Source of the DNA: a virus
Lineage: Duplodnaviria; Heunggongvirae; Uroviricota; Caudoviricetes
Virus record (IMG/VR): IMGVR_UViG_2870490042_000004
Location: 1 to 31,113 of that record
DNA: 31,113 bases
Strand: one strand, 5' to 3'
In this document: piece after piece, positions 1,944-31,113 of the stretch
Numbering within the stretch: position 1 is the first letter of the stretch
How the letters are laid out: each line of letters starts with the position of its first letter
Program-made: the position numbers and the translations under genes
The notes under the pieces: generated by a model
Seen by the model: only the letters and a program-made list of their open reading frames with translations
Databases searched by the model: none
What the model was told of the DNA's origin: nothing

Positions 1944-1957
1944 TTTTCGTCACCTCC

Positions 1958-4405
1958 TTAACCGTCATGCATCATGCTGGCACGGGCGCGCGCACGTTTA
2001 TCCCGCTCGTATTTTTCGAGCGCATCCTGTAACTGGCGGTCGAGCTGTGTCCCCGGCGCAGTACCACCCGTCAGGCTGATGTGATATTCGTTTTTACTCT
2101 GGTCTACATAAGAGCGGCCAGCCGGTGCCGTGACCGGCTGATAAGCCTGATAACCTGCATAAGAGCTGGTCGCCGGAATATAACCACCGCTGCCATACGT
2201 GGCGGCTTGAGTTCTGGCGGCGGTCTGGTCAAGTGTGTCTGACTCTTTGTTGATAACACCGAGTTTTTCCAGTACCCAGTCAATACCACTGCGCAGTTTG
2301 TTGAACGCATTAAGCGGCAGCATCAGCGCGTCAGCCAGTGCCTGCCCGAACATGACGCCCGTGTCACGGCAACGGTTCAGGGTGTCCTGGGTGGCTTTGA
2401 CCGGGGCAATCAGGTTTTTAAACCACTGCCACGCGGCCTGTAACTTTTCACCCAGCCAGTCAAACACCGGTTTAAGTGGCGTGAACAGTTCCCCCACCGG
2501 CGCAAATGCCGCTTTCAGCCCTTCCACCACACCGCCAAAGAATGCGCTGACAGGCTCCCAGTATTTACGGATAAGCAACGCCCCGGCGACAATGGCGGCC
2601 ACCACGGCCACAACCGGCCAGCTAATCGCCCCGATGGCGGTTATAACAGCACTGCCAACCGTCGTGAAGATTGCCCCCATTGCGCCTGCTGCCGCGATGA
2701 TGGCATTGATGCCGGTGATAACCGGCCAGGCTACGAGGCCAATGGCACCGATGACACCAATCAGTGCCAGTGCACCACCGACAATGATGCCGATGGTTGA
2801 CGCCAGTGATTTGTTTTTCTGGATCCAGCCGTCGAGTTTTAACACATACTTTGTGGCCGTCTGCGTGAGATTACGCAGTGCGCCTTCCTGCTGGTCAAAC
2901 AGGTCAGTCCCCACCGCCTCATAAGCGGACTGAAACTCCTTAAAGTCACCGCCGAGGTTGTCCTGCATGATATTTACCAGCTCTGCGGTCTTCCCGTCTG
3001 AGGCTTTAAACGCAGCGGTCAGTTTGTCCAGCTTTCCGGTTGAGGCGGCAGTCATCAGCACAGCGGCGGCTGAGCTGGCCTCCTCCCCGAAAATGGTTTT
3101 CATGTATTCAGCCTGCTGGGCAGTACCGAGCCGGTTTTTCTCAAAACTGGCCTGCATTTCTTTCAGAATGGTAAATATTGGCCGGGTGTTTCCCTTGCTG
3201 TCTGAGGTTTTCACTCCAAGCTCTTTGAGTGCATCCCATGCTTTTCCCGTCGGTGCCTGCAGGCGGCTTAACACGGCACGGCTTCCCGTCCCCGCCATTG
3301 AGCCTGTGATTTTTGCATCATGCAGCGCCCCGACCATTGCGGCGGTTTCTTCAATGCTGACACCGGCATTTTTTGCCACAGGTGCGGCATAGGTCAGCGC
3401 ATCGCTCATGCCGTCAAAATCGGCGGCGGTTTTGTTCATCGTCATGGAGAGAACATCCCCGATATGAGCGACCTTATCGTTTGAAAGCTGAAAGGCGGAT
3501 TTCATCCCCATCAGCAGGGCGGCGTTTTCTTCCATCGTGCGGCGGTTCGCCAGCGCCATATTCAGCGTGACCGGCGTTGCCGCCTGAATGGCATCAACAT
3601 CCCCACCGGCTTTCGCAATGATAATCTGTGCACCGGCTGCATCATCTGCCGAGGCTGCGGTATTGTCGCCGAGCTGGCGCGCCTGCTTGCGGAGTGCGGT
3701 CATTTCGGCGGAGTCTTTTGCCACTCCCAGCACAGCCTGCAATTCTGAGTTTTTCTGCGCAAACTCATAACCGGGCATCAGCAGCTTAACTCCGGCCATC
3801 GTTCCCGCAGCAGCAATCCCCACACCGGCAGCGCCCACCGAGACCATATTTCCGGCCAGCTCCTTTCCGGCCTGATAACGCTGTTTGACTGCGTTAAGTT
3901 TTGCCTGTTGCGCACTGACACGCGCCAGCGCGTCGCGCTGACGGTTAAGCTGTGCGGTGGTTTCACTGATACGGTTTTTCAGTCCCTGCTCATCATGTGC
4001 AAGATTGCGGGTATTAATTCCCACAGCGGCCAGTTCCCGCTGCTGGCGTTTAACGGAATCCGTCAGGCGGTTATATTTCGCCTGTAAGTCCTCCGCCGCA
4101 CGCTTTGCGGATTCCAGCACTTTCGCCTGAGCACGGGTCGGACGTTCGGTGTTTTTAAACTGTGTGGCAAGGGCTTCTGCTTCCTGCCGAGCCTTTTCAA
4201 GTGCATGACCAGTCACGGCGAGCTGTGCACTGGTCTTGCGGAATCCCTCAATACGGGATGCGTGACCGTTCAGCTCGCGCAGTGATTTTTGTGTTTCCCG
4301 GATATCCCCCGACAGCGACTTGCTCGCTGTGCGGATGGATTTAAACGGGCGGGATGCCTGGTCAACAGCCCTGAGCAATACCTGTAATTTTACATTGTTA
4401 CTCAT
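1958..4405 (-). CDS. T: Tail tape-measure protein (P2 gpT-like)
   Basis: 815 aa; coiled-coil-rich N-terminal half, Gly/Ala-rich hydrophobic central stretch (IGIIVGGALALIGVIGAIGLVAWPVITG...); lies between E/E' and U. Confidence 0.9.
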   Translation of the reverse strand: MSNNVKLQVLLRAVDQASRPFKSIRTASKSLSGDIRETQKSLRELNGHASRIEGFRKTSAQLAVTGHALEKARQEAEALATQFKNTERPTRAQAKVLESAKRAAEDLQAKYNRLTDSVKRQQRELAAVGINTRNLAHDEQGLKNRISETTAQLNRQRDALARVSAQQAKLNAVKQRYQAGKELAGNMVSVGAAGVGIAAAGTMAGVKLLMPGYEFAQKNSELQAVLGVAKDSAEMTALRKQARQLGDNTAASADDAAGAQIIIAKAGGDVDAIQAATPVTLNMALANRRTMEENAALLMGMKSAFQLSNDKVAHIGDVLSMTMNKTAADFDGMSDALTYAAPVAKNAGVSIEETAAMVGALHDAKITGSMAGTGSRAVLSRLQAPTGKAWDALKELGVKTSDSKGNTRPIFTILKEMQASFEKNRLGTAQQAEYMKTIFGEEASSAAAVLMTAASTGKLDKLTAAFKASDGKTAELVNIMQDNLGGDFKEFQSAYEAVGTDLFDQQEGALRNLTQTATKYVLKLDGWIQKNKSLASTIGIIVGGALALIGVIGAIGLVAWPVITGINAIIAAAGAMGAIFTTVGSAVITAIGAISWPVVAVVAAIVAGALLIRKYWEPVSAFFGGVVEGLKAAFAPVGELFTPLKPVFDWLGEKLQAAWQWFKNLIAPVKATQDTLNRCRDTGVMFGQALADALMLPLNAFNKLRSGIDWVLEKLGVINKESDTLDQTAARTQAATYGSGGYIPATSSYAGYQAYQPVTAPAGRSYVDQSKNEYHISLTGGTAPGTQLDRQLQDALEKYERDKRARARASMMHDG

Positions 4406-6662: not shown

Positions 6663-7256
6663 CTATTTGTCCCGGTTGGCTAAGGGATGACACAATTTAT
6701 TCTTTGTCGTTGATACGGGGAATTTTTTATAGAGCGTGGACAGGCCAATATCAAAAATCAGCGCCACACGTTGACGAGATTCCCCCGCAGCCAGCAACCG
6801 TCCGACCTGCTCCCACTCACTCGCGGTGAGTTTCGGTCGTCTGCCACCAATACGACCTTTGGCTCTGGCTGCTTCCAGTCCGGCGCGTGTCCGCTCGACA
6901 ATGAGTTCTCGCTCCATTTCAGCCAGGGCACCCATCACATGAAAGAAAAAACGCCCCATCGGCGTGCTGGTATCAATAGCATCTGTCAGGCTGCGAAAAT
7001 TAACGCCGCGTTCGCGCAGTTCCTCAACCAGAATGACCAGATGCCGCATACTACGCCCCAGCCGGTCCAGCTTCCAGACCACCAGTGTATCCCCCTCCGA
7101 TAATGTCCTGAGCAGTTTTTTCAGTCCCGGTCGGTCGGACTTCGTGCCGCTGATTTTATCCTCAAAAATCAGCTCACATCCTGCGCACTCCAGCGCGTTA
7201 CGCTGCAATTCCGTATTCTGGTCATTTGTTGACACGCGGACATAGCCAATAAGCAT
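6663..7256 (-). CDS. Site-specific DNA invertase, serine recombinase of the Gin/Cin/Hin/Pin family
   Basis: 197 aa; N-terminus MLIGYVRVSTNDQ (catalytic Ser), GDTLVVWKLDRLGRS, MGRFFFHVMGALAEMERE, C-terminal HTH (ALIFDIGLSTLYKK); near-collinear with Mu Gin as I remember it. Confidence 0.95.
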   Translation of the reverse strand: MLIGYVRVSTNDQNTELQRNALECAGCELIFEDKISGTKSDRPGLKKLLRTLSEGDTLVVWKLDRLGRSMRHLVILVEELRERGVNFRSLTDAIDTSTPMGRFFFHVMGALAEMERELIVERTRAGLEAARAKGRIGGRRPKLTASEWEQVGRLLAAGESRQRVALIFDIGLSTLYKKFPVSTTKNKLCHPLANRDK

Positions 7257-7312
7257 GATGGATCCCCTGAATAAAAACCGGGGATGATGCCAGTTAGCCG
7301 TAATCTCTGCAT

Positions 7313-7338
7313 TTTCTTAAACGTTGGTTTGGGAGAAG
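7313..7338. repeat. Invertase crossover site (gix/hix-like 26-bp site, left boundary)
   Basis: TTTTCTTAAACG-TT-GGTTTGGGAGAA; two imperfect 12-bp half-sites around a central TT; its right half is the inverted copy of the left half of the site at 9221-9246. Confidence 0.7.
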
Positions 7339-7781
7339 GTGTTCCAGCTATTGGCGTTCCGTTCTTCTGGCCGTCCGCCGCAATGCCAGATACCGTAATC
7401 GAAAGCTGGTCCAGCATGGTGTTTTTGAAGTTCAACGGCGCGAAATTCTCTGCCACTGATTACCCTGTGCTGGCGAAAGTGTTTCCTTCGCTGGTATTGC
7501 CTGAAGCCCGCGGTGATTTCATTCGTATCTGGGATGATGGGCGAGGGGCGGACAGTGGACGAGCATTATTAAGCTGGCAGGCAGCAACATCTTTATCGCA
7601 ATTTGGCGGTAATTATCCAGAGGGCTCCGGCCATTCGATTGCTAATCACGATGGAATATCAGCACACGAGCCGGGTTTCTCTCGATACCATTACACCAGT
7701 AATTCAGTGGGTGATGGTGTGAATTTTATTGCCGTCAGACCACGTAACATCGCATTTAACTTTCTGGTGAGGGCTAAATAA
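7326..7781 (+). CDS. Alternative tail-fibre C-terminal exon (Sv'-like), start-less in the current orientation
   Basis: Reading frame is open through the crossover site and encodes ..VGLGE.., the same residues as H 276-280. It is followed by its own tail-fibre assembly gene with stop/start overlap TAATG. The ATG at 7284 in the ORF track is probably incidental. Confidence 0.6.
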   Translation, partial: GLGEGVPAIGVPFFWPSAAMPDTVIESWSSMVFLKFNGAKFSATDYPVLAKVFPSLVLPEARGDFIRIWDDGRGADSGRALLSWQAATSLSQFGGNYPEGSGHSIANHDGISAHEPGFSRYHYTSNSVGDGVNFIAVRPRNIAFNFLVRAK

Positions 7782-8374
7782 TGAAACCTGTTTTTGATGA
7801 AAATGGACTGGCTACAGTGCCGGGTGATATGCGTTGTTTTTATTATGATGAAGTAACGTATGAATATACGGGCTGGTCTGATGAATATATTAATACTGGT
7901 GTAAGTATGCCCGCCTGTTCCACTGGTATTGACCCGGGCGAAAACATTCCTGGAAAAGTGGCAGTATTTACGGGTAAGGGATGGATCCATGAAGAAGACC
8001 ATCGCAATGAGACTGTTTACTCAACAGAAAATGGTGCAGCTGTTACAGTGGATTATATCGGTGCCATCAAAGACGGTTATGTCACGCTTTCACCGTTAAC
8101 GCCATACGATAAATGGGATGGTGAGAAATGGGTGACGGATACCGAGGCACAGCATAGCGCCGCAGTAGACGCGGCAGAAGCACAGCGCCAGTCGCTGATT
8201 GATGCTGCAATGGCTTCCATTAGTCTGATTCAGCTGAAATTACAGGCCGGGCGGAAACTGACGCAGGCAGAAACAACCCGGCTTAACGCTGTGCTGGATT
8301 ACATTGACGCGGTGACGGCAACAGATACCAGCACCGCGCCGGATATCAATTGGCCTGCTCCCCCGGAGGCGTAG
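7781..8374 (+). CDS. Tail fibre assembly chaperone (Tfa', alternate)
   Basis: 197 aa; SD GAGGG upstream; C-terminal ..DINWPAPPEA motif typical of Tfa/gpG-like chaperones; paired with the Sv' exon. Confidence 0.8.
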   Translation: MKPVFDENGLATVPGDMRCFYYDEVTYEYTGWSDEYINTGVSMPACSTGIDPGENIPGKVAVFTGKGWIHEEDHRNETVYSTENGAAVTVDYIGAIKDGYVTLSPLTPYDKWDGEKWVTDTEAQHSAAVDAAEAQRQSLIDAAMASISLIQLKLQAGRKLTQAETTRLNAVLDYIDAVTATDTSTAPDINWPAPPEA

Positions 8375-8792
8375 GCCAGACGGGATTTGATGTATCAACG
8401 CGCATCAGCAAGACCCGGTATTTTTTCCATTCAGATAACGCGGCGGTTTCTTCTGCCGTCGCGATTTCCGCATCAAAAGCATCCTGTCTCCAGACTATTT
8501 CCTTATCAGCCATAGAACGCAATACCGTTCTTTTCTGTTCAGCCTGAATAATCTGTTGTTCAGCGGAGAGTGGCGGGATATCAATCCACGCAGGATTACC
8601 ATTTTTATCAGCCCCCAGCGTTTTGCCTTCTGGCGCTACGCCTGTGTAAATTGCCATTGTTTCATCATCAACATCAGCGCCATTTTCAGGCCATGAACCG
8701 GCGCTGATATATACCTCTTTTAGTGCTTCCGGATAGAAAGAGCCTTTATAAAATTTATTCATTCTTAATACCCCAGCGCGATAAAACAACAA
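8346..8792 (-). CDS. G: Tail fibre assembly chaperone (P2 gpG-like, currently expressed orientation)
   Basis: 148 aa; immediately downstream of H (overlap 8765-8792); C-terminal ..NPVWPTPPGEQAN Tfa-type motif. Confidence 0.8.
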   Translation of the reverse strand: MLFYRAGVLRMNKFYKGSFYPEALKEVYISAGSWPENGADVDDETMAIYTGVAPEGKTLGADKNGNPAWIDIPPLSAEQQIIQAEQKRTVLRSMADKEIVWRQDAFDAEIATAEETAALSEWKKYRVLLMRVDTSNPVWPTPPGEQAN

Positions 8793-10060
8793 TCTTCGGT
8801 GCCCTCTCCGGATGGCGACCAGTTCTGAATACTGATGTGCGTTCTGCTGGCAATACGCACATTCATCGCGGCATTGTAGCCAGATGTTCCACGGTTTCCG
8901 GTCGCAAACAAGCCTGCATAGGGAAAAGCAAATGGTAAGGCATATCCAGCATCAGCTCCCTTTTGTGTTGCCACCGTTCCCCACTGCAACATAAGTTTCA
9001 CCGGGTTTCCTGTCGTCGCAATGCATGGAATGTAGATGTAGCCATTACCTGACATCATTGACCTGAAGCTGTCTAAATCCAGTAACTTCGAGGGATTATC
9101 TGCTCCAACATCTCGTGTTGCAGCGGTCCCTAACTGGAGCGCATTTCGGAAGGCTGATACATCAGAAATATCAGATCCATTAGCCGATTTCTGCATAGCT
9201 CCGGAGGCTTTATTTATCGTTTCTCCCAAACCAAGGTATGCGAGAAGACCGGCAACATCCTTTCCACTCAAATGAGTCAGCGTCTCATCCAGTGGCTGCT
9301 TACCTGACAGCGCATTGTTAATGGTGGTGCTGAATTTCGGGTCATTGTTAATGGCCGCGGCAATTTCTTTCAGTGTGTCCAGCGTGTCAGGCGCACCGTT
9401 AATCAGAGCGGTAATAGCGGCCTGTACAAACGCAGTGGTCGCAATCCGCGTGGTGTTATTTCCTGCGGCAGGCGTCGGCGCTTTTGGTTCTCCGGTAAAT
9501 GTCGGATTATGTTTCTGCGCATACTGGGTATGAGGATCCTGTGCGGCAATGTGGTTTCTCATCTGTTCATCCACATACAGCCTTAATTCCAGGACTTCAT
9601 CATCCACGTATTTACGGGTCGCCAGTACCACCGACGGGTCGATTTTCAGCGTAATAGCTTCGGTATTCGTGACAACCAGAATCATGCGGATAGTCTGGGT
9701 ACGACCGCTGCCTTCCTGCAACTGCGGTTTGTACGTTTCCGGGCAGTTCGCCACCGCAATGAGTACGCCTTCATCATCATAAAGCCCAATCTCACGGATC
9801 CAGAATCCGCCCTCGTTCTCAGGGATGATTTGCTCCGCAATAATCTGGCTCTGGTTGTTCGGGTCAACACTCAGAAGATTCAGCGGCGCGATGCGTTTCT
9901 GGTTAATCAGTTTTGTCTGTGCCGGGTCTGGTGTCGGCAAGACACCATTCGCATCACCAACGGCCATTTGCGTCAGATTCAGCTTACTGCCGAGCATCGT
10001 CGCGTTAGCCAGCCGTGCTGCGCCCTGATTAGTCAGAATGGCGTAGTATTTCACTGTCAT
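8765..10060 (-). CDS. H: Tail fibre protein (P2 gpH-like): constant N-terminus plus currently joined variable C-terminus
   Basis: 431 aa; position between I and the chaperone gene. The crossover site at 9221-9246 lies inside the gene at LAYLGLGE (aa 273-280), splitting a constant part (9247-10060) from a variable part (8765-9220). Confidence 0.85.
   Translation of the reverse strand: MTVKYYAILTNQGAARLANATMLGSKLNLTQMAVGDANGVLPTPDPAQTKLINQKRIAPLNLLSVDPNNQSQIIAEQIIPENEGGFWIREIGLYDDEGVLIAVANCPETYKPQLQEGSGRTQTIRMILVVTNTEAITLKIDPSVVLATRKYVDDEVLELRLYVDEQMRNHIAAQDPHTQYAQKHNPTFTGEPKAPTPAAGNNTTRIATTAFVQAAITALINGAPDTLDTLKEIAAAINNDPKFSTTINNALSGKQPLDETLTHLSGKDVAGLLAYLGLGETINKASGAMQKSANGSDISDVSAFRNALQLGTAATRDVGADNPSKLLDLDSFRSMMSGNGYIYIPCIATTGNPVKLMLQWGTVATQKGADAGYALPFAFPYAGLFATGNRGTSGYNAAMNVRIASRTHISIQNWSPSGEGTEDCCFIALGY
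9221..9246. repeat. Invertase crossover site (right boundary, inside H)
   Basis: TTCTCCCAAACC-AA-GGTATGCGAGAA; left half-site plus central dinucleotide are the exact inverted repeat of 7325-7338. Confidence 0.7.
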
Positions 10061-18993: not shown

Positions 18994-20766
18994 ATGACCA
19001 TCACCACAGACACCACTCTTTTACACGACCCGCGTCGTCAGGCGGCGCTGCTGTACTGGCAGGGATTTTCCGTGCCGCAGATTGCCGCCATGTTGCAGAT
19101 GAAACGCCCGACGGTGCAGAGCTGGAAACAGCGCGACGGCTGGGACAGCGTTGCCCCCATCAGCCGTGTCGAAATGAGTCTGGAAGCGCGGCTGACCCAG
19201 CTCATCATCAAACCGCAGAAAACCGGCGGTGACTTCAAGGAAATTGACCTGCTCGGACGCCAGATTGAACGACTGGCACGGGTCAACCGTTACAGTCAGA
19301 CCGGCAACGAGGCAGACCTTAATCCGAACGTCGCTAACCGCAACAAAGGCGGGCATCGCAAACCGAAAAAGAATTTTTTCAGTGACGAGGCCATCGAAAA
19401 GCTGGAGCAGATTTTCTTTGAGCAGTCTTTCGACTATCAGTTGCACTGGTATCGCGCCGGGCTTGAGCACCGCATCCGCGATATCCTGAAATCCCGCCAG
19501 ATTGGCGCGACGTTTTATTTTTCCCGCGAGGCGCTGCTGCGCGCCCTGAAAACCGGTCATAACCAGATTTTTCTGTCGGCCAGTAAAACGCAGGCGTATG
19601 TGTTCCGCGAATACATCATCGCCTTTGCCCGGCTGGTTGACGTTGACCTGACCGGTGACCCGATTGTCCTGGGCAATAACGGCGCAAAACTGATTTTTCT
19701 CGGCACCAACTCCAACACCGCGCAGAGCCATAACGGCGACCTGTACGTCGACGAGATTTTCTGGATCCCGAATTTTCAGGTGCTCCGTAAGGTGGCATCA
19801 GGTATGGCCTCACAGAGTCACCTGCGCTCGACCTATTTCTCCACCCCGTCCACGCTGGCGCACGACGCCTACCCGTTCTGGTCCGGTGAACTGTTTAACC
19901 GGGGACGCGCCAGCGCCGCCGAACGCGTGGAAATCGACGTCAGTCATAACGCCCTTGCCGGTGGGCTTCTCTGTGCGGACGGCCAGTGGCGGCAGATTGT
20001 CACCATTGAGGACGCCCTGAAAGGCGGCTGCACATTGTTCGACATTGAGCAGCTTAAACGCGAAAACAGCGCCGACGATTTTAAAAACCTGTTCATGTGT
20101 GAATTTGTTGACGACAAGGCGTCGGTGTTCCCGTTCGAGGAGCTGCAACGCTGCATGGTCGACACGCTGGAAGAATGGGAAGACTATGCGCCGTTTGCCG
20201 CGAATCCGTTCGGCTCCCGCCCGGTATGGATTGGTTACGACCCGTCACACCGTGGCGACAGTGCCGGATGCGTGGTGCTGGCACCGCCGGTGGTGGCCGG
20301 TGGCAAATTCAGAATACTTGAGCGTCACCAGTGGAAAGGCATGGACTTTGCCACTCAGGCGGAATCCATCCGCAAACTCACCGAAAAATACAACGTCGAA
20401 TACATCGGTATTGATGCCACCGGCCTCGGTGTCGGCGTGTTCCAGCTCGTGCGCTCGTTCTATCCCGCCGCGCGCGATATCCGCTACACACCGGAAATGA
20501 AAACCGCAATGGTGCTCAAGGCAAAAGACGTTATCCGCCGTGGCTGTCTGGAATATGACGTCAGCGCCACCGACATCACCAGCTCGTTTATGGCTATTCG
20601 CAAGACCATGACCAGCAGCGGACGCAGCGCCACCTATGAGGCCAGCCGCAGCGAGGAAGCCAGCCACGCCGATCTCGCCTGGGCGACCATGCACGCCCTG
20701 TTAAATGAGCCACTCACCGCCGGTATCAGCACCCCGCTGACATCCACCATTCTGGAGTTTTACTGA
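18994..20766 (+). CDS. P: Terminase large (ATPase) subunit (P2 gpP-like)
   Basis: 590-aa product from the ATG at 18994 (MTITTDTT...) with SD GAGGT; stop overlaps the Q start; divergent from O as in P2. Confidence 0.9.
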   Translation: MTITTDTTLLHDPRRQAALLYWQGFSVPQIAAMLQMKRPTVQSWKQRDGWDSVAPISRVEMSLEARLTQLIIKPQKTGGDFKEIDLLGRQIERLARVNRYSQTGNEADLNPNVANRNKGGHRKPKKNFFSDEAIEKLEQIFFEQSFDYQLHWYRAGLEHRIRDILKSRQIGATFYFSREALLRALKTGHNQIFLSASKTQAYVFREYIIAFARLVDVDLTGDPIVLGNNGAKLIFLGTNSNTAQSHNGDLYVDEIFWIPNFQVLRKVASGMASQSHLRSTYFSTPSTLAHDAYPFWSGELFNRGRASAAERVEIDVSHNALAGGLLCADGQWRQIVTIEDALKGGCTLFDIEQLKRENSADDFKNLFMCEFVDDKASVFPFEELQRCMVDTLEEWEDYAPFAANPFGSRPVWIGYDPSHRGDSAGCVVLAPPVVAGGKFRILERHQWKGMDFATQAESIRKLTEKYNVEYIGIDATGLGVGVFQLVRSFYPAARDIRYTPEMKTAMVLKAKDVIRRGCLEYDVSATDITSSFMAIRKTMTSSGRSATYEASRSEEASHADLAWATMHALLNEPLTAGISTPLTSTILEFY

Positions 20767-21800
20767 TGAGTAAGAAAAAAGGGAAAACACCGCAACCTGC
20801 GGCAAAAAAAATGACCGCCAGCGCCCCGAAAATGGAGGCATTCACCTTTGGTGAGCCGGTGCCGGTACTCGACCGCCGTGACATTCTGGATTACGTCGAG
20901 TGCATCAGTAACGGCAGATGGTATGAGCCACCGGTCAGCTTTACCGGTCTGGCGAAAAGCCTGCGTGCTGCCGTGCATCACAGCTCACCGATTTACGTCA
21001 AACGTAATATTCTGGCTTCAACGTTTATCCCGCACCCGTGGCTTTCCCAGCAGGATTTCAGCCGTTTTGTGCTGGATTTTCTGGTGTTCGGTAATGCGTT
21101 TCTGGAAAAGCGTTACAGCACCACCGGTAAGGTCATCAGACTGGAAACCTCACCGGCCAAATATACCCGTCGTGGCGTGGAGGAGGATGTTTACTGGTGG
21201 GTGCCGTCCTTCAACGAGCCGACAGCCTTCGCGCCCGGCTCCGTGTTTCACCTGCTGGAGCCTGATATTAATCAGGAGCTGTACGGCCTGCCGGAATATC
21301 TCAGCGCCCTTAACTCTGCCTGGCTGAATGAGTCGGCCACGCTGTTCCGCCGCAAGTATTACGAAAACGGCGCACATGCAGGATACATCATGTACGTCAC
21401 CGATGCCGTGCAGGATCGCAACGATATCGAAATGCTTCGCGAAAACATGGTGAAGTCGAAAGGCCGCAACAACTTTAAAAACCTGTTTCTCTATGCCCCA
21501 CAGGGGAAAGCCGACGGCATTAAAATTATCCCGCTCAGTGAAGTGGCGACGAAGGACGATTTTTTTAATATCAAAAAAGCCAGCGCCGCTGATCTGCTGG
21601 ACGCGCACCGCATCCCTTTTCAGTTGATGGGCGGCAAGCCGGAGAACGTCGGGTCGCTGGGCGATATTGAGAAAGTGGCAAAGGTCTTTGTCCGCAATGA
21701 GCTTATCCCGCTACAGGACAGGATCCGCGAGATAAACGGCTGGCTCGGTCAGGAGGTCATCCGCTTTAAAAACTACTCACTGGACACTGACAACGGCTGA
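20766..21800 (+). CDS. Q: Portal protein (P2 gpQ-like)
   Basis: 344 aa (P2 gpQ length); last gene before cos. Confidence 0.9.
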   Translation: MSKKKGKTPQPAAKKMTASAPKMEAFTFGEPVPVLDRRDILDYVECISNGRWYEPPVSFTGLAKSLRAAVHHSSPIYVKRNILASTFIPHPWLSQQDFSRFVLDFLVFGNAFLEKRYSTTGKVIRLETSPAKYTRRGVEEDVYWWVPSFNEPTAFAPGSVFHLLEPDINQELYGLPEYLSALNSAWLNESATLFRRKYYENGAHAGYIMYVTDAVQDRNDIEMLRENMVKSKGRNNFKNLFLYAPQGKADGIKIIPLSEVATKDDFFNIKKASAADLLDAHRIPFQLMGGKPENVGSLGDIEKVAKVFVRNELIPLQDRIREINGWLGQEVIRFKNYSLDTDNG

Positions 21801-21827: not shown

Positions 21828-21969
21828 ACACCCCGTCATCACGCCCTCACACGCTCACCACCGCACAAAACACCCCGCAGACACACCAACGCCTCAACGG
21901 GCAGACTAAGCGCCTTCACGACGCGCTCAGACGCTGAAAAAATAAAATCAGCACCACCGCCAGCGCGCA

Positions 21970-21988
21970 GTGCTTTCCCCGCCTCGCC
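21970..21988. other. cos cohesive-end sequence (P2-type 19-nt cosN)
   Basis: GTGCTTTCCCCGCCTCGCC is the exact reverse complement of the P2 cohesive end GGCGAGGCGGGGAAAGCAC as I recall it; it lies just distal to Q, where cos is expected. Confidence 0.65.
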
Positions 21989-22134
21989 CGCCCGCTTCAT
22001 GGGGCGGTTTTAATGCAGTTACATGACCTTATAAAAGCCACATAACTGCTGTTCTGAATAAGGTATTAAACTCCTGTAACGCTCATTCAATTTAACGCAG
22101 ATTGATGCAATTGCTCACTGCAGTACAATCCCGA

Positions 22135-23949
22135 TTATTTCCATTCTTCAGAATAGACTGCATCTGACGATCTAGGACCAGGTATAGCCTGATGAATAGA
22201 AATTCTCACTGGTATATTAAAAGCTGCACCAAACGCAATTGCATCCCCCCTAGGAAGACCTGAAACTTGTCTAATCATCAATTCATTCCCACTCTCCATC
22301 GCATATCGGAGAGTTTGCAGGTCTCGTTCATTAGTTAGCCGCAATGCAAACCAATTTGAACACATAGCTAATACAGTAGTAGAAAGTTCTGATGGACGCT
22401 GAGTACTAACAATCAATGAACATTTAAATTTGCGTCCTTCTTTTGCAAGACGTTCATAAGCCTTAATTTGAGAATCAATCTCAGAGTAAGGATCTCTCAA
22501 ATAATGATGTGCTTCTTCAAGAAGTAAAACAGTTGGGAAAGACTTATCTTGCCCTCTTAAAAAAAGAACTTCAGCAAACATTTCTAATAAAGCACTCAAC
22601 AGCATTGGTGCATGGTCTTGCGAAAGATTTTTAAGATTAATAATATGCACATTCCAATCATTTTCCTCTCCTTTCTCTCGGCCAAAAAAATAGTCAACTT
22701 CATTTTTCATTGCCGATTCCCAATGTTTACCATTATTAGTTAAAGTATGCCCTCCCTTCATATCTACAACATTTTTGAATCTGATATCCTCTGATAGCTG
22801 CTGAATAATTTTCACTAAAGGAAGCACATTGCCATAACTAAAAGCATCTCTTTTACTTCCACCAGAACGAAAGTCCGCAGCAACACAACCGAACTCGGCT
22901 ACTAAACTAGCAATACTTTTGAATGGAGGCCATCGATCTGTTTTAGCAAGTGTCCTATTTCTTAACCCATCCAACCATAATCCAAGCGAGAATTGCCCTT
23001 CCTCTCGGCAATCATCATATATCCGAAACTGAGTTCCTTTACTATCTTCCAGATAAAAATTAGAACCTTCAAAATGTGTTCTATTTATAGCATTAAGAGC
23101 ATTCCTCAACGCTGGCAACTGTGTTTTATCGCTAGGACGTAGTAATTTTATCAACCCTGCAAAACCAAGCGCTTGATACGGTATTTGCTTATAATAGACA
23201 TGTTTTTCAGAAAATACCTGACCTCGCACAAATGGAGGTCGCGGTGGTATACCTTCAGGACTCATCCCCAAAATAGTATGTTTAACATTCGCTATTCCTT
23301 CAAATGCTTTAGAATACTCGCCATTAATATCAAAAATCACAATTCTCGAATTAGGATACTTCTCGGAAATACGCCTGGTCAACAGTGCATTAAAATTTGA
23401 TTTTCCATACCCAGTACTCCCTAACACAGCCATATGACGAGTCAACAACTTATCAATACTCGCTAAGATTTTTACTGATTTAGTTCTTGAATCCAAACCT
23501 AACTCTATGGCTTTTTCCAATTCATCCTCATCGATACTATAAATCGTATTTAAAAAATTAGATGTTAACGGAACCGCTGAGGCCCCCAATGCTGGTAGTC
23601 TCCAATCCTCTGAAACAAAAATACACCCGTCGTTGTTTCTCTTAATGAAACCAATGGCATAAGCTATAATCTGCCTTAAAGGCATATCCGTTATATCCGA
23701 CGTACCGATATTTGCTTTATGAGCTTTATCAGCCTCGACAAACGCCATATCTGTAACTCGGGCAACGACCAAAATATTTCCAGCATCAAAACCAATCAAA
23801 TCACCAGGCTGAGTAACAGAACTCACACCATCCCTATGAGAGGCCAATCTTCCTTGTAGACCTTCATGAAGGTTAATCCTTATTTTCTCACCTTCCAAAC
23901 CAACAACATAACCAATTGCAGAAAGCTCTGAGAGTTTAAAATGAGACAT
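22135..23949 (-). CDS. HerA/FtsK-like ATPase, second gene of a SIR2-HerA-type defence operon
   Basis: Walker A GSTGYGKS, Walker B LLLEEAHHY, HerA-type motifs IVIFDINGEY and FKCSLIVSTQRPSEL. Start placed at the ATG at 23949 (MSHFKL..., SD AAAGGGGA), which overlaps the upstream gene's stop by 14 nt. The ORF track's TTG at 23997 is a less likely start. AT-rich codon usage. Confidence 0.8.
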   Translation of the reverse strand: MSHFKLSELSAIGYVVGLEGEKIRINLHEGLQGRLASHRDGVSSVTQPGDLIGFDAGNILVVARVTDMAFVEADKAHKANIGTSDITDMPLRQIIAYAIGFIKRNNDGCIFVSEDWRLPALGASAVPLTSNFLNTIYSIDEDELEKAIELGLDSRTKSVKILASIDKLLTRHMAVLGSTGYGKSNFNALLTRRISEKYPNSRIVIFDINGEYSKAFEGIANVKHTILGMSPEGIPPRPPFVRGQVFSEKHVYYKQIPYQALGFAGLIKLLRPSDKTQLPALRNALNAINRTHFEGSNFYLEDSKGTQFRIYDDCREEGQFSLGLWLDGLRNRTLAKTDRWPPFKSIASLVAEFGCVAADFRSGGSKRDAFSYGNVLPLVKIIQQLSEDIRFKNVVDMKGGHTLTNNGKHWESAMKNEVDYFFGREKGEENDWNVHIINLKNLSQDHAPMLLSALLEMFAEVLFLRGQDKSFPTVLLLEEAHHYLRDPYSEIDSQIKAYERLAKEGRKFKCSLIVSTQRPSELSTTVLAMCSNWFALRLTNERDLQTLRYAMESGNELMIRQVSGLPRGDAIAFGAAFNIPVRISIHQAIPGPRSSDAVYSEEWK

Positions 23950-25183
23950 TCCCATCCCCTTTAGATAATTTAGAAATAGCCTCAACCAGATCATCAACAG
24001 TATTTTCTCTTGGAAAGAGAACAGGATAGGGAAGATGTTTTACAAAACTGTCAAAGTAGGCATATTCACCTCCACCAACAATAGTCACCTGATTAAATGT
24101 CAAATTTTTTAAATTAATTATTGCCTTTTCACTTTCTGAAGCCAAGTTTTTTTCAACTTTTGATTGAGCACTATCTAACTCTGGATAATAAATAACGATA
24201 TGAAATGATGGATTTAACAACGCTCCTAAAATTATTCGATTTATATGGTAATCACCGAATCCAAAACCATTTACAAACAATGCTGTTTGTGGCTTTGACA
24301 AAAACTCTCCAAATCGTCTAAACATCTCGCCATACACAAAACCAATAGTATGGCTATATTTATTTGCACCGGGGTAAATTAAGTGTTGACCATGGAAATA
24401 ACCATCTTCATTTATGATATTTTGTATATAGTTATCATAGGCTTGAGAAGCACTTATTTCACTAACTGTTAAACAATCATCCTGATACCAAGTAAGAGAA
24501 CCGTGCAATTTATAAAGATAGGCATGATAATGTCCAAAACGTGCTTCTCCCTTTGCATTTACATTTCTAAAAGCCAAATCGAAATTTTGAGGGTAAAATT
24601 GTCGCGTGTGTAATCCAGCAAATCCATTAAACAACTGAATCCCTAAATCCTCTGCTGACCATTCTAAAGCCAAATCATAATTTGTTGTAAAAAGTGCAGG
24701 TGCCGATTGACCTGGTTGACGATTTGATATTAGTTTGGATATTAGCTCTTTATGATCTCGGAATTGAGATTTCTTACCCTGGTTTTTATTTCTAAAATCA
24801 CTACCAGTCAATAATGCAGCTTTTGTCACTTCTTTATATAAACTGCTTAATATCAAACCAACTTCCTTAACCTCAACTTCATTATGTCGAGTTTTTGCGA
24901 CTGATAAAAATTTAGTAGCTTCATCAATCAATAATTCCACATTGACTATATCATTATCAGAATCAGCCTGAGTGACCAAAAAATATTTTTCAATTAGCAA
25001 TGCCAGAAGCTTCGGATACTCTTGCTTAAACGATTGCCACACCTGCTTCATTGTGTTCCCACCACAACCAACAGATGCGCCAGCTCCCAAGAGAACCCCA
25101 ACATTATCCAACTGGCATAAAGAGTAAACATGAGAACGAAAATCATCCTCACAAATCTTTTTACCACCTTGATAAATAATCAT
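23936..25183 (-). CDS. SIR2-like (sirtuin-fold, SIR2_2-type) NADase-family protein, first gene of the SIR2-HerA-type operon
   Basis: 415 aa; Gly-rich NAD-binding loop VGVLLGAGASVGCGG; TTNYD and KLHGS motifs (SIR2 catalytic Asn/His context); SD AAAGGGG 5 nt upstream of the ATG; AT-rich. Confidence 0.8.
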   Translation of the reverse strand: MIIYQGGKKICEDDFRSHVYSLCQLDNVGVLLGAGASVGCGGNTMKQVWQSFKQEYPKLLALLIEKYFLVTQADSDNDIVNVELLIDEATKFLSVAKTRHNEVEVKEVGLILSSLYKEVTKAALLTGSDFRNKNQGKKSQFRDHKELISKLISNRQPGQSAPALFTTNYDLALEWSAEDLGIQLFNGFAGLHTRQFYPQNFDLAFRNVNAKGEARFGHYHAYLYKLHGSLTWYQDDCLTVSEISASQAYDNYIQNIINEDGYFHGQHLIYPGANKYSHTIGFVYGEMFRRFGEFLSKPQTALFVNGFGFGDYHINRIILGALLNPSFHIVIYYPELDSAQSKVEKNLASESEKAIINLKNLTFNQVTIVGGGEYAYFDSFVKHLPYPVLFPRENTVDDLVEAISKLSKGDGNVSF

Positions 25184-25252
25184 AAACGCCCCTTTCGACT
25201 AAAGTTTGAATCTGAAAACAACCTAAATTGAAATGTAGATTATGAGAGAATT

Positions 25253-25281
25253 TTTTTAGAACGAAAAGCCCATTCATTCAA
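25253..25281 (-). promoter_or_regulatory. Candidate sigma70-type promoter for the SIR2-HerA operon
   Basis: On the minus strand: TTGAAT, 17-nt spacer, TAAAAA, about 70-100 nt upstream of the SIR2 ATG in an ORF-free AT-rich 200-bp spacer. Hexamer match is weak and unverified. Confidence 0.25.
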
Positions 25282-25385
25282 GGAGTTAAAACCATCAGAA
25301 ATCACTGTTTTACTACATGCCAGAACTCCCCTTATGGCTTGTCTGTTACGCCATGCTGAGCTAGGTCTACACAACTACCTGTAAT

Positions 25386-27506
25386 TTACGACAGACAGGA
25401 TTTAGTCAGCCTCGCAGATGACGTAATTTTATGCGGTTTTAACAGATTGTAATTACTATGGTGGTGCTTTCTCGTAGACAAAGAGTATTTTAATGCCCCC
25501 CTGAGCACCCTCACGACATCCTGGTCATTCCATTCGATAACTCCGTCATCAACCAGATTAAGCACTGCTGCGGCGTGCTCAGAAGGTGTGGGAGCCGGTA
25601 ACGAAGTATCACCACCGGTGAGCATTCCACAGTTATTGACAGGACTCCGAGGCGCGGCGATGCCGCTTTTTAAAGTCAAAGGCTCAACGACCGGAACTTT
25701 CGGCACAATGCGCCAGTCCGTCGTTCTGGTGATATGAATATGACGCGCGCCGAGATGCGGCGCGTAAATGCCGACCACTCTCCCGACTTCTTCCTCGTAC
25801 TCGTTAACGTCATCCGACGGACTACGGGCAACCCTGACAGTCTGACAATCACGCGGAACATTTGCCCCACCCTGCGCGCTGATATACAACGCAAAATCAC
25901 CACTGTCTGCGGCGGCACGTGCAGCCTCAACGCGTTCGTCAAACTCATCAGCAATGCTGACGCCGCGAGGCAATTTGCGTAGTTCACGGTAAGCCCCCAT
26001 TGTCGGCAGACCAACCGTTTTAAATTGTGGGATGCGCCACGTTGACGCCCATGCGGTAACAGCCGCAGCAGTGTCTTTCAGCGGTCTGCCGGTATCGTTA
26101 TCGAGCTGACCATCCAGTGCATAGCCATCGATGTTTTTTGAGATGTATTTCGCGATATACCCCGCAGCACCGCCCCGGTTAAGGTGTTTTGCCTGAAAAC
26201 GGTTTCGCGCGGCTCCTCTTTCGTCGCCATCCTCTTTGAGCGCATAGCGACGCATGATTTCAATAATCTGGTTACGCTGGCGTGGATTACAAAAAAGCAT
26301 CATATGCCAGTGCGGCGTTCCGTCGTGGTGTGGCTCGACGACTCGCAAACCGTAGACCTGTAAATCATTATCCTTGAATGCCGTGCGCATCAGGCTCCAG
26401 ATACGGCAGAGATAACGCTGCGCATCCTTTGGATTAAATGCCTCATCATTCCAGCCGTGATTAAGCTGGACGGTTTTACTTTCGCCTTTTCCGACCTGAC
26501 GTGTCGGGTGATACTTTGACGGCGTGGTCAGCGTGATAAACATCCCCACATCACCCTCTGCGGCGGCGTAACGCTCAATACCGGCGATGGTGTTCATCAG
26601 CTCCATCCGGCGAATTTCAGGATTAGAAATACTGCCCATCACCTTACTGATAAGGTCGATGCGCTCGCCGGTTTCCCTGTTTTCGAGGTCACACGATTTA
26701 AGAAATTCCAGATTTGCCTGGCGGCGTGCACGCACATCACGAATGGCATGTTTACTGGCATAAGGAGAACGGTCTTTATTGACCTCCCCGACAGCAATCA
26801 GTAACGCCTCATGCCAGCGCATACGCTGGCCTTTAAGCTGATGAGTCCACCACTCATCGTTAAACAGACGAGCAATGGCAGAATATGCCTGCCTCGTGGT
26901 CATCTGTCCTTTACGGTATTTTTTCCAGTAAAGCGGGGAAATATTGAAAGCACGTGCAGCGCCAGCAACATGACCATACAGATGCGCCTGCGCCTCATCC
27001 GTAAACAGCGATTCTTTTTCGCCATGCGCATCCACCCAGGCATCGCAGAGTTCCTCATACATCATGAAAAGCTGCGATGAGATACGGGCGGCAAACTTTT
27101 TCAGCTCCTTGTCATTCATCCCCGGCAGACGCGCATAGTGGTCACGCTCAGCCAGAAACAGCATCGACGCTTCGGTGTTCATTTCATGGCGCTGATTCAC
27201 GCGCTCAATGCGCGGCCATAAACGACGCTGAAAAGTGGATGTGAGGAAATAAAACCCGTGCACCGGGCTTTTATTGCGCCGGATGTAGTCATAGCGTGAA
27301 GTAAACAGCGAACGCAAAAAGTAAGGCAGGCGGTTAATCGTGGATAAAACACCTTGCACCTGACGCATCTCGTCACGTGTAAGGGGTCTTTCGCGCCCGA
27401 CAGCCTCGCGTGGCGCGTTCCATGCATAAGCACCGGTAAACGTCTCACCGGTGCCTGCGGCAAATGCTGACGGAGGGACAAAACGCCCGGAGGCTTTAAC
27501 GGCCAT
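25386..27506 (-). CDS. A: Replication initiation protein A (rolling-circle HUH endonuclease, P2 gpA-like)
   Basis: About 706 aa from the first ATG at 27506 (MAVKASGRF...); the ORF track starts at an upstream TTG at 27548. HUH-type motif PHWHMMLF and tyrosine motif YIAKYISKN; position between the early ORFs and the cargo island. Confidence 0.88.
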   Translation of the reverse strand: MAVKASGRFVPPSAFAAGTGETFTGAYAWNAPREAVGRERPLTRDEMRQVQGVLSTINRLPYFLRSLFTSRYDYIRRNKSPVHGFYFLTSTFQRRLWPRIERVNQRHEMNTEASMLFLAERDHYARLPGMNDKELKKFAARISSQLFMMYEELCDAWVDAHGEKESLFTDEAQAHLYGHVAGAARAFNISPLYWKKYRKGQMTTRQAYSAIARLFNDEWWTHQLKGQRMRWHEALLIAVGEVNKDRSPYASKHAIRDVRARRQANLEFLKSCDLENRETGERIDLISKVMGSISNPEIRRMELMNTIAGIERYAAAEGDVGMFITLTTPSKYHPTRQVGKGESKTVQLNHGWNDEAFNPKDAQRYLCRIWSLMRTAFKDNDLQVYGLRVVEPHHDGTPHWHMMLFCNPRQRNQIIEIMRRYALKEDGDERGAARNRFQAKHLNRGGAAGYIAKYISKNIDGYALDGQLDNDTGRPLKDTAAAVTAWASTWRIPQFKTVGLPTMGAYRELRKLPRGVSIADEFDERVEAARAAADSGDFALYISAQGGANVPRDCQTVRVARSPSDDVNEYEEEVGRVVGIYAPHLGARHIHITRTTDWRIVPKVPVVEPLTLKSGIAAPRSPVNNCGMLTGGDTSLPAPTPSEHAAAVLNLVDDGVIEWNDQDVVRVLRGALKYSLSTRKHHHSNYNLLKPHKITSSARLTKSCLS

Positions 27507-30117: not shown

Positions 30118-31113
30118 ATGTCTATTAAAAAGCTCGATGATGGTCGTTATGAAGTGGACGTCAGACCGCAGGGTGCAGATGGAAAACGTATCAGGCGGAA
30201 ATTTAAAACTAAAGGTGAAGCTCAAGCATTCGAACGTCATGTACTGGTTAACTACCACAACAAAGAGTGGCTGGAGAAACCAGCCGACCGCCGAACTCTT
30301 ACAGAGTTGTTAGGCAGATGGTGGATATATCACGGAAAATCACATGAGCGTGGAGATATTGAACGGGGGCGTTTAACGACAATAATCGCCAAATTTGCAG
30401 AAATGGGAGTGTCCAGAGCTGACCAGCTAACAAAGAAAACGATAACTGATTATCGCGTTGTAATGATGAACGATGGTCTAAAACCAGCCAGCGTAAATCG
30501 GCATCTGGCAATAATGAGCGGGATGTTCACCAAGTTAATTGACGCCGGTGAATACCACTCTCACAACCCGTTCCGTGAGGTTAAGCGGTTACGTGAAGCT
30601 GTTACAGAAATGGCTTTTTTGTCCAGTGAAGAGATTACGCGACTGTTATCCATGCTTGATGGTGATGAATTAAATGCGACTCTGGTCTGCCTTTCTACTG
30701 GTGGACGCTGGAGTGAAGTGTCTAATTTAAAAGCTGAACACATCATTAACCAGATGGTTACGTTTATGAAAACTAAAAACGGAAAGCGCAGGACAATTCC
30801 CGTTTCGCAGGACTTGATTAAACGGATCAAAACCAAAAATTCTGGCAGGCTTTTTAATGCCAGTTACTACAAAGTGCGCAACGCTCTCAGGGAAGTAAAA
30901 CCCGATTTACCTGACGGACAGGCAGTGCATGTTTTGAGGCATACATTTGCCACACATTTTATAATGAATGGAGGTAACATAATCACATTGCAGCGCATCC
31001 TGGGTCATTCTAACATTCAGCAAACTATGACCTACGCACACTTTGCACCGGATTTCTTACAAGATGCTGTGACTCTTAACCCGGTGTCAGGAATGTCCAT
31101 AATGCGTCCATAA
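30118..31113 (+). CDS. int: Tyrosine integrase (P2 Int-like)
   Basis: 331 aa; C-terminal catalytic region HVLRHTFATHF...LGHSNIQQTMTYAHF (R/H-x-x-R...Y); stop codon is the last 3 nt of the window. Confidence 0.9.
   Translation: MSIKKLDDGRYEVDVRPQGADGKRIRRKFKTKGEAQAFERHVLVNYHNKEWLEKPADRRTLTELLGRWWIYHGKSHERGDIERGRLTTIIAKFAEMGVSRADQLTKKTITDYRVVMMNDGLKPASVNRHLAIMSGMFTKLIDAGEYHSHNPFREVKRLREAVTEMAFLSSEEITRLLSMLDGDELNATLVCLSTGGRWSEVSNLKAEHIINQMVTFMKTKNGKRRTIPVSQDLIKRIKTKNSGRLFNASYYKVRNALREVKPDLPDGQAVHVLRHTFATHFIMNGGNIITLQRILGHSNIQQTMTYAHFAPDFLQDAVTLNPVSGMSIMRP

What the first reader, a model, noticed from the sequence alone, without database searches (positions are those of the whole stretch)
22135..25183. 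SIR2-HerA-type anti-phage defence operon carried as cargo in the P2 tin/old hotspot
Two co-oriented, overlapping minus-strand genes lie between cos and gene A, where P2 carries tin and old. The first encodes a 415-aa protein with SIR2-fold signatures (GAGAS glycine loop, TTNYD, KLHGS). The second encodes a roughly 604-aa protein with HerA/FtsK ATPase signatures (GSTGYGKS, LLLEEAHHY, IVSTQRPSEL). SIR2 followed by HerA is the arrangement of the described SIR2-HerA defence system, which is known to deplete NAD+ on infection. The DNA is clearly AT-richer than the flanking phage genes. I cannot tell from sequence alone whether this is a canonical or a divergent member; residues outside the motifs did not look familiar to me.
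Basis: partly seen in the sequence, partly recalled or inferred. Interest (0 to 1): 0.85.

Follow-up and report, generated by a model that had tools for sequence, protein, structure and literature searches.

The report
Known SIR2-HerA defence operon in P2 prophage
This is an intact copy of the already described SIR2-HerA (Nezha) anti-phage system, sitting in the well-known variable slot of a P2-like E. coli prophage; the same two proteins at the same slot were catalogued in a 2022 paper, so the call is correct but ordinary.

Summary
Two overlapping minus-strand genes, sir2 (23936-25183, 415 aa) and herA (22135-23949, 604 aa), lie in a 3.5-kb AT-rich block (GC 0.35-0.38 vs 0.53). The block sits between the exact P2 cos site (21970-21988) and replication gene A.

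Both proteins match the PADLOC SIR2-HerA models over their full length (E 8e-190 and 1.6e-274). They are 82% and 78% identical to the E. coli Sir2-HerA complex solved by cryo-EM (8J4U, 8SU9 and others). All catalytic residues are kept: SIR2 N168, D170, H227; HerA K183, E478/E479.

The solved, experimentally validated allele (E. coli NCTC 11129) occupies the same P2 slot. The exact proteins (WP_016242007, WP_016242008) are listed at this hotspot in Rousset et al. 2022, as system #14 with 188 occurrences, labelled "SIR2 + HerA (Gao et al., 2020)".

The likely mechanism is inferred from homologues. A SIR2 dodecamer plus a HerA hexamer form a complex that depletes NAD+ on infection, with ATP-inhibited NADase and nuclease activities. 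The infection trigger remains unsettled.

Novelty: already known. Interest is low. The only open point is whether the divergent HerA helical-bundle region changes phage specificity.

The parts
20766..21800 (+). P2-family portal gene Q, the left backbone flank of the hotspot
   Evidence: ORF. RefSeq calls it 'phage portal protein' in an identical prophage. The backbone is 97.9% identical to Peduovirus phages such as Wphi and HQ103.
21970..21988 (-). cos cohesive-end sequence GGCGAGGCGGGGAAAGCAC
   Evidence: Exact 19/19 match, with 0.01 expected by chance. The 19-mer was recalled from my own knowledge of P2/P4. Independent support: linear phage genome records start or end exactly at window 21988.
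21988..22007 (+). GC-rich hairpin followed by a T-run next to cos; the last backbone element before the variable block
   Evidence: Terminator-like site. It is conserved in all three alleles' prophages apart from two loop positions, and sequence conservation is lost just after it, at about 22018.
22019..25517 (.). Variable, AT-rich cargo block that is swapped between P2-like prophages
   Evidence: Three-allele DNA alignments show where the near-identical backbone stops and resumes. The GC drop covers the same span. Both boundaries are approximate, to within about 10 nt.
22135..23949 (-). herA: HerA/FtsK-type ATPase, 604 aa. Walker A K183 is at 23401-23403 and Walker B E478/E479 at 22513-22518.
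   Evidence: PADLOC HerA PDLC02185 at 1.6e-274. Pfam DUF87 at 2.1e-21. The match to solved chain 8j4u_M scores 1087 bits at E=0, and identity is 78%. The motifs are invariant across the three alleles.
23936..25183 (-). sir2: SIR2-family NADase, 415 aa. N168 is at 24680-24682 and H227 at 24503-24505.
   Evidence: PADLOC SIR2 PDLC02186 at 8e-190. NCBIfam SIR2_antiphage scores 505 bits against a cut-off of 500. The match to solved chain 8j4u_A has E 1.6e-234, and identity is 82%. The catalytic residues are invariant across the alleles.
23936..23949 (-). 14-nt overlap between the sir2 stop and the herA start, suggesting translational coupling
   Evidence: Junction sequence ...GGGGATGGGAATGTCTCATTTTAA.... 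All three alleles are annotated with the same 14-nt overlap.
25184..25385 (-). Upstream intergenic region of the operon, with an RBS-like AAAGGGG 6 nt before the sir2 ATG. The promoter is presumed to lie here but was not identified.
   Evidence: Sequence. The promoter scan found no more sites than the shuffled controls (12 found vs 11.2 expected).
25386..27506 (-). P2 replication gene A, the right flank. Its last ~44 codons (25386-25517) belong to the variable block.
   Evidence: RefSeq annotates it as 'replication endonuclease'. Alignment A4 shows backbone identity resuming only at about 25518.

Best explanation
This is a functional two-gene SIR2-HerA (Nezha) anti-phage operon carried as cargo in the cos-proximal Q-A hotspot of a P2-like (Peduovirus) E. 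coli prophage.

Shown here: the family membership of both genes, intact catalytic residues, purifying selection, the operon layout and the location.

Inferred from characterised homologues:
- SIR2 assembles into a dodecamer and binds a HerA hexamer, giving a 12:6 complex of roughly 1 MDa.
- Assembly licenses the SIR2 NADase and nuclease activities and the HerA ATPase/helicase activities.
- Physiological ATP holds the NADase and nuclease in check.
- On infection the brake is released, NAD+ is hydrolysed to ADP-ribose and nicotinamide, and the phage cannot replicate. This is abortive-infection-type immunity that protects the lysogen population and, with it, the prophage.

The infection signal itself is not settled in the literature and cannot be read from the sequence.
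For: - Profile hits: full-length matches to the PADLOC SIR2-HerA models, plus Pfam SIR2_2 and the HerA central domain and NCBIfam SIR2_antiphage above its cut-off.
- Solved structure: 82% and 78% identity over the full length to the solved EcSir2-HerA chains in 8J4U, 8SU9, 8SUB, 8SUW, 8UAE and 8UAF (8SXX holds the SIR2 chain only).
- Reference allele: the solved SIR2 is 100% identical to the E. coli NCTC 11129 allele. PMC11514289 states that this allele protects against lambda. It lies in the same P2 slot.
- Catalytic residues: SIR2 N168, D170 and H227, and HerA K183 and E478/E479, are invariant in the three alleles. The equivalent residues abolish defence when mutated in homologues: N168A and H227A in V. 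cholerae Nezha and HerA K173A in Paenibacillus.
- Selection: pN is 0.05-0.25 against saturated pS of 0.69-0.9 relative to the validated allele, which indicates purifying selection.
- Mechanism in homologues: 12:6 assembly, activation by assembly and ATP inhibition.
- Prior cataloguing: Rousset 2022 Tables S5A and S5B list these exact proteins at this hotspot as 'SIR2 + HerA (Gao et al., 2020)'.
- Backbone and cos context.
Against: - This particular allele has not, to my knowledge, been tested. Rousset et al. do not name it among the P2-hotspot systems they report as validated.
- No convincing sigma-70 promoter was found upstream, so expression in the lysogen is assumed.
- HerA scores below NCBIfam's equivalog cut-off (707.6 vs 800 bits). 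The validated NCTC 11129 HerA does too (710.3), so this says little.
- HerA residues 229-430 are only 65% identical to the characterised allele, so specificity could differ.
- The relative weight of NAD+ depletion versus nuclease activity, and the trigger, are disputed between the published studies.
Confidence: 0.9

Rival explanations
1. It is the same SIR2-HerA complex, but immunity comes mainly from DNA unwinding and cleavage (SIR2 nuclease plus HerA helicase) acting on phage DNA, with NAD+ depletion secondary.
For: Nuclease activity, inhibited by ATP, is reported for PsSIR2-HerA, EcSIR2-HerA and SaSir2-HerA. Four enzymatic activities are described.
Against: Point mutations in the NADase site alone abolish defence in homologues. 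Some phages escape by regenerating NAD+, which points to NAD+ loss as the effective blow. Nothing in the window sequence discriminates between the two views.
Confidence: 0.07
2. It is an inactive or decaying remnant of a defence operon carried passively by the prophage.
For: Natural knock-outs exist: in strain T16R an IS903B insertion truncates herA to 529 aa. No clear promoter was detected.
Against: Both ORFs are full length with all catalytic residues. Purifying selection is strong. The DNA is at least 99% identical in 11 complete genomes, and the exact proteins are found on 225 and 177 contigs.
Confidence: 0.02
3. HerA is not a defence protein here. It would serve the phage's own DNA handling (packaging, replication or repair, as with archaeal HerA-NurA), and SIR2 would act as a regulatory deacetylase.
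For: HerA/FtsK ATPases are DNA translocases, and the gene lies beside cos and the replication gene. There are weak profile hits to repair-type HerA at 87-94 bits, far below their cut-offs.
Against: The best matches are defence-specific models, by hundreds of bits. Many P2-like phages lack the genes altogether: the slot holds 169 different systems, and none of the sequenced phage isolates carries this one. The composition is foreign to the backbone.
Confidence: 0.01

Closest known systems
EcSir2-HerA of E. coli NCTC 11129 (Gao et al. 2020; Tang et al. 2023; Shen et al. 2023; PDB 8J4U, 8SU9, 8SUB, 8SUW, 8SXX, 8UAE, 8UAF)
   Same: - Same two-gene order, with the same 14-nt overlap.
- Same protein lengths: 415 aa for SIR2, and 604 vs 610 aa for HerA.
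- Same slot between cos/Q and gene A of a P2-like prophage.
- 82% and 78% amino-acid identity.
- All catalytic motifs identical.
   Different: - A separate old allelic lineage: 73% DNA identity with saturated synonymous sites.
- Divergence is concentrated in HerA 229-430 (65% identity) and the SIR2 C-terminal 80 residues (69%).
- HerA lacks the 7-residue C-terminal tail of the reference.
- This allele has not been tested experimentally, as far as I could find.
P2-hotspot system #14, 'SIR2 | DUF87', in Rousset et al. 2022 (PMC9122126, Tables S5A and S5B)
   Same: It is the same thing. The table's representative HerA sequence is the window's HerA, and WP_016242007 + WP_016242008 are listed at the Q-A locus.
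   Different: Nothing detectable. That study catalogued the system, and it is not among the validated systems named in the text I read.
Third E. coli allele (e.g. strain MB7671: WP_094336912 and WP_023352402)
   Same: Same slot and same architecture, with 84% and 84% amino-acid identity to the window's proteins.
   Different: About 77.5% DNA identity. Its SIR2 scores just under the NCBIfam cut-off (498.7 vs 500), so RefSeq names it only 'SIR2 family protein'.
Paenibacillus sp. 453MF, S. aureus and V. cholerae SIR2-HerA (Nezha)
   Same: Same system type: a SIR2 NADase plus a HerA ATPase forming a supramolecular complex, with NAD+ depletion on infection.
   Different: They are distant relatives. 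[quoted passage not shown] Their stoichiometries or oligomeric states differ: 14:6 in Paenibacillus, and dimeric free SaSir2. E. coli-type SIR2 has a C-terminal extension that shapes the interface.
P2 old and tin exclusion genes
   Same: They occupy the same cos-proximal slot and play the same ecological role, as prophage-encoded exclusion of competing phages.
   Different: The proteins and mechanisms are unrelated. The window's slot (22019-25517) holds only sir2 and herA, so no old or tin gene is present there.

Membership tests
SIR2-HerA (Nezha) defence system | A SIR2-family protein with the NAD+-binding glycine loop and the catalytic Asn/Asp and His | tested here: met
   Pfam SIR2_2 at 1.3e-9. 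PADLOC SIR2 PDLC02186 at 8e-190, covering residues 1-412. GAGAS 33-37, N168, D170 and H227 are invariant across the alleles. The equivalent residues are named as catalytic.
SIR2-HerA (Nezha) defence system | A HerA/FtsK-clade ATPase with Walker A and Walker B motifs | tested here: met
   Pfam HerA central domain (DUF87) at 2.1e-21. PADLOC HerA PDLC02185 at 1.6e-274. K183 and E478/E479 are conserved.
SIR2-HerA (Nezha) defence system | The two genes are adjacent and co-oriented in one operon | tested here: met
   sir2 lies upstream of herA on the minus strand with a 14-nt overlap. The arrangement is identical in the validated NCTC 11129 locus.
SIR2-HerA (Nezha) defence system | Full-length homology to an experimentally validated member | tested here: met
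   82% and 78% identity to the EcSir2-HerA chains of 8J4U, 8SU9 and other entries, aligned end to end. The solved SIR2 is 100% identical to the NCTC 11129 allele.
SIR2-HerA (Nezha) defence system | Scores above the curated NCBIfam equivalog cut-offs (NF042942 and NF042943) | tested here: inconclusive
   SIR2 passes at 505 bits against 500. HerA fails at 707.6 against 800. The validated NCTC 11129 HerA also fails, at 710.3, so this cut-off does not separate true E. coli members from non-members.
SIR2-HerA (Nezha) defence system | Assembly into a 12:6 SIR2:HerA complex that activates the NADase | not tested
   Inferred from 78-82% identity to the solved complex. I did not run a complex prediction. 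The N-terminal barrel of HerA (87% identical to the reference allele) is well conserved, but the SIR2 C-terminal extension, which contributes to the interface, is only 69% identical.
SIR2-HerA (Nezha) defence system | Protects against phage and depletes NAD+ on infection | not testable with these tools
   This needs plaque assays and NAD+ measurement. It has been shown for homologues only.
P2-like prophage Q-A (old/tin) defence hotspot cargo | Lies between portal gene Q/cos and replication gene A of a P2-family genome | tested here: met
   Q ends at 21800, cos is at 21970-21988, and gene A ends at 25386. The backbone is 97.9% identical to Wphi, HQ103 and other Peduovirus phages.
P2-like prophage Q-A (old/tin) defence hotspot cargo | The block is variable between otherwise near-identical phages and differs in composition from the backbone | tested here: met
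   The backbone is identical up to about 22018 and again from about 25518, with a divergent cassette in between. GC is 0.35-0.38 in the cassette genes and 0.53 in the flanking genes.

The most novel reading that the evidence does not exclude
The three E. coli SIR2-HerA alleles that alternate in the same P2 slot may be specificity variants. Their divergence is concentrated in the HerA helical-bundle region (residues 229-430, 65-70% identity, against 82-94% elsewhere in HerA) and in the SIR2 C-terminal extension (336-415; 69% identity to the reference allele, 79% to the third allele). That pattern could reflect an arms race. It might change which phages or signals trigger the complex, or let the complex escape phage-encoded inhibitors. 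If so, this untested allele would have a different protection spectrum from the NCTC 11129 reference.
Probability: 0.3. Interest if true: 0.35.

Novelty: already known. Interest (0 to 1): 0.1.

Why it matters
It matters little as a discovery. The system type, its structure, its mechanism in outline, and even this exact protein pair at this exact prophage slot are already published.

It is a clean positive control for the scan: a reader with no tools correctly recognised a defence operon and its hotspot from motifs alone.

Two modest practical points follow. First, the reference EcSir2-HerA used for the cryo-EM work is itself P2-hotspot cargo, with at least two other old allelic lineages in the same slot. 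That gives a natural series for mapping the parts of HerA and SIR2 that determine trigger specificity. Second, NCBIfam's HerA_antiphage cut-off excludes all three E. coli alleles, so their HerA partner is annotated only as 'ATP-binding protein'.

Tried and rejected
- **Shen et al. 2023:** I tried to read it (PMC11418745) for EcSir2-HerA residue numbering, but it is not held. I used other papers that cite it instead.
- **Paper search:** the first search failed because one term was too short.
- **Phage collection, DNA:** blastn at 'distant' sensitivity against 50,697 phage records found no match to the cassette.
- **Phage collection, protein:** tblastn with HerA found only remote ATPase and terminase hits at 22-37% identity. 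No sequenced phage isolate in that collection carries the system, although 139 records match the backbone.
- **Promoter scan:** 12 sites were found against 11.2 expected from shuffles, so no promoter call was made.
- **Rfam scan of the whole window:** nothing found.
- **Python comparison with L002 and L003:** it failed because those loci were not in /data. I used protein comparison and align_proteins instead.
- **2026 preprint on P2/P4 hotspots:** its main text does not mention SIR2, HerA or Nezha.
- **Structure prediction and fold search:** judged unnecessary, because solved structures at about 80% identity exist.
- **Large protein-database searches and metagenome scans:** not spent, because the answer was already decisive.
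- **Considered and rejected:** a decayed remnant and a phage DNA-handling role for HerA (see the rival explanations).
Full report
**1. Observation**

SIR2 is 23936..25183 on the minus strand (415 aa, ATG start). The HerA ORF runs 22135..23997 when read mechanically from a TTG. Its real start is almost certainly the ATG at 23949, which gives 604 aa. RefSeq calls it there in identical prophages, and residue 1 of the solved homologue aligns there. The genes overlap by 14 nt.

GC falls to 0.32-0.40 across 22001-25500, against about 0.53-0.57 in the flanks. By gene, GC is 0.346 and 0.384 for sir2 and herA, against 0.534 and 0.533 for the portal gene and gene A.

**2. What it is**

Profile searches leave no doubt.
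- Pfam gives SIR2_2 (1.3e-9) and the HerA central domain DUF87 (2.1e-21).
- PADLOC's SIR2-HerA models match over the full length, at 8e-190 and 1.6e-274.
- NCBIfam's SIR2_antiphage equivalog is passed (505 bits; cut-off 500).
- NCBIfam's HerA_antiphage scores 707.6, below its cut-off of 800. I checked whether this signals divergence, and it does not. The experimentally validated NCTC 11129 HerA scores 710.3 and the third E. coli allele 701.2. The cut-off simply excludes the E. coli clade, which is why RefSeq names these proteins only 'ATP-binding protein'.

Against solved structures, SIR2 aligns end to end with 8j4u_A (also 8SU9, 8SUB, 8SUW, 8SXX, 8UAE, 8UAF) at E 1.6e-234. HerA aligns with 8j4u_M at E=0. 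Global identities are 82% and 78%.

**3. Context**

The window is a P2-like prophage.
- An identical prophage in E. coli WCHEC005784 is annotated with the full P2 gene set, from tail genes to integrase, integrated next to pflA.
- The structural half is 97.9% identical to Peduovirus phages such as Wphi and HQ103. Those alignments end at window 21988, which is position 1 of the linear phage records.
- The 19-nt cohesive-end sequence GGCGAGGCGGGGAAAGCAC, recalled from my own knowledge of P2/P4, matches exactly at 21970-21988.

The order is therefore Q (ends 21800), terminator, cos, hairpin, herA, sir2, then a 202-nt spacer before gene A, whose coding sequence ends at 25386. Rousset et al. [quoted passage not shown]

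**4. Cassette limits and alleles**

Complete E. coli genomes hold this DNA at 99% identity or more in 11 of 5,426 genomes. Another 35 genomes carry two other alleles, at about 77.5% and about 73.3% DNA identity. Representatives of both other alleles sit in the same Q-A slot of P2-like prophages.

Aligning the junctions of the three alleles shows a near-identical backbone up to about 22018, just past the cos hairpin. Identity resumes at about 25518, which is inside gene A. The swapped block is therefore about 3.5 kb and includes the last ~44 codons of gene A.

The 73% allele is the reference system. Its SIR2 is 100% identical to the solved chain. It is the allele of strain NCTC 11129, which PMC11514289 names as the source of the EcSir2-HerA shown to combat lambda.

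Between the window and that allele, synonymous sites are saturated (pS 0.69-0.9) while pN is 0.05-0.25. These are old lineages under purifying selection, not decaying copies.

Divergence is uneven. HerA 229-430, which I take to be roughly the helical-bundle region by analogy with the domain map, is 65% identical. The rest of HerA is 82-87% identical. The SIR2 Rossmann core is 90% identical, but the C-terminal 80 residues are 69% identical.

**5. Mechanism**

Shown here: intact ORFs, conserved catalytic residues, coupled operon layout and purifying selection.

Inferred from published homologues:
- EcSir2 forms a dodecamer and binds a HerA hexamer, giving a 12:6 complex.
- Assembly activates the NADase, and ATP at 0.5 mM inhibits it in vitro.
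- ATP-inhibited nuclease activity and HerA ATPase/helicase activity are also reported.
- Mutating the SIR2 Asn or His, or the HerA Walker A Lys, abolishes defence in homologues.
- Some phages escape by regenerating NAD+.

The most likely mode of action is therefore NAD+ depletion triggered by infection, in the manner of abortive infection. The trigger is unresolved; one proposal is a fall in cellular ATP.

No convincing promoter was found upstream. Expression could come from the 25184-25385 spacer or by read-through from gene A, which is on the same strand.

**6. Comparison with what is known, and novelty**

Rousset et al. 2022 Table S5A lists WP_016242007 + WP_016242008 as 'SIR2_2 + DUF87' at the P2 hotspot. 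These are the RefSeq accessions of the window's two proteins. Table S5B ranks the system #14 with 188 occurrences and labels it 'SIR2 + HerA (Gao et al., 2020)'. It prints a representative HerA sequence that is the window's HerA.

The exact proteins occur on 225 and 177 contigs in public assemblies. The SIR2 is already named 'SIR2 family anti-phage-associated protein'.

The finding is therefore correct and already known. What remains untested is only this allele's own protection spectrum.

**7. Verdict**

- Observation: confirmed.
- Interpretation: supported.
- Novelty: already known.
- Interest: 0.1.
- Most novel reading not excluded: the alleles are specificity variants, driven by divergence in the HerA helical-bundle region and the SIR2 C-terminus (probability about 0.3; modest interest if true).

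Noticed in passing
window 6663-9246: There appears to be a Cin/Gin-type invertible tail-fibre segment. A serine recombinase gene (6663..7256, -) sits beside a 26-nt inverted repeat (7312-7337 and 9221-9246, 81% complementary, about 1.9 kb apart). The arms resemble cix/gix crossover sites as I remember them. They bracket oppositely oriented tail-fibre-assembly genes (7781..8374 + and 8346..8792 -) and reach into the 3' part of the tail-fibre gene (8765..10060 -). This would be a host-range switch, located where P2 has its second variable region (Z/fun).
   Followed up: partly
window 25386-25517: The last ~44 codons of replication gene A lie inside the variable cassette, so each hotspot cargo brings its own gpA C-terminus. 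Gene A differs in length between alleles: 2121 nt here and 2313 nt in MB7671. In the NCTC 11129-type prophages it is annotated as a pseudogene missing its C-terminus.
   Followed up: partly
L005 (E. coli T16R, NZ_CP046716.1) 912-3515: This is a natural knock-out of the same allele. An IS903B insertion in the 3' end of herA truncates HerA to 529 aa and leaves sir2 intact.
   Followed up: no
window 22135-23949; L002 and L004 herA: NCBIfam NF042943 (HerA_antiphage, cut-off 800 bits) is missed by all three E. coli alleles, which score 701-710 bits. That includes the structurally solved, experimentally validated one. RefSeq therefore labels them only 'ATP-binding protein'.
   Followed up: yes
window 22019-25517, compared with the phage collection: 139 phage records match the window's P2 backbone, yet none carries this SIR2-HerA cassette by DNA or protein search. 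In complete E. coli genomes, 46 of 5,426 carry one of the three alleles. The system is seen in prophages but not in the sequenced isolates of that collection.
   Followed up: partly
window 21839-22000 (-): This 53-aa ORF is listed mechanically across the GC-rich cos region. It overlaps the cohesive-end sequence and is almost certainly not a gene.
   Followed up: no
window 30118-31113: By offset from the identical prophage, the window ends exactly at the stop of the P2-type integrase gene. In that genome the next gene is pflA, so the window looks like a prophage-delimited extract. The attachment sites were not examined.
   Followed up: no
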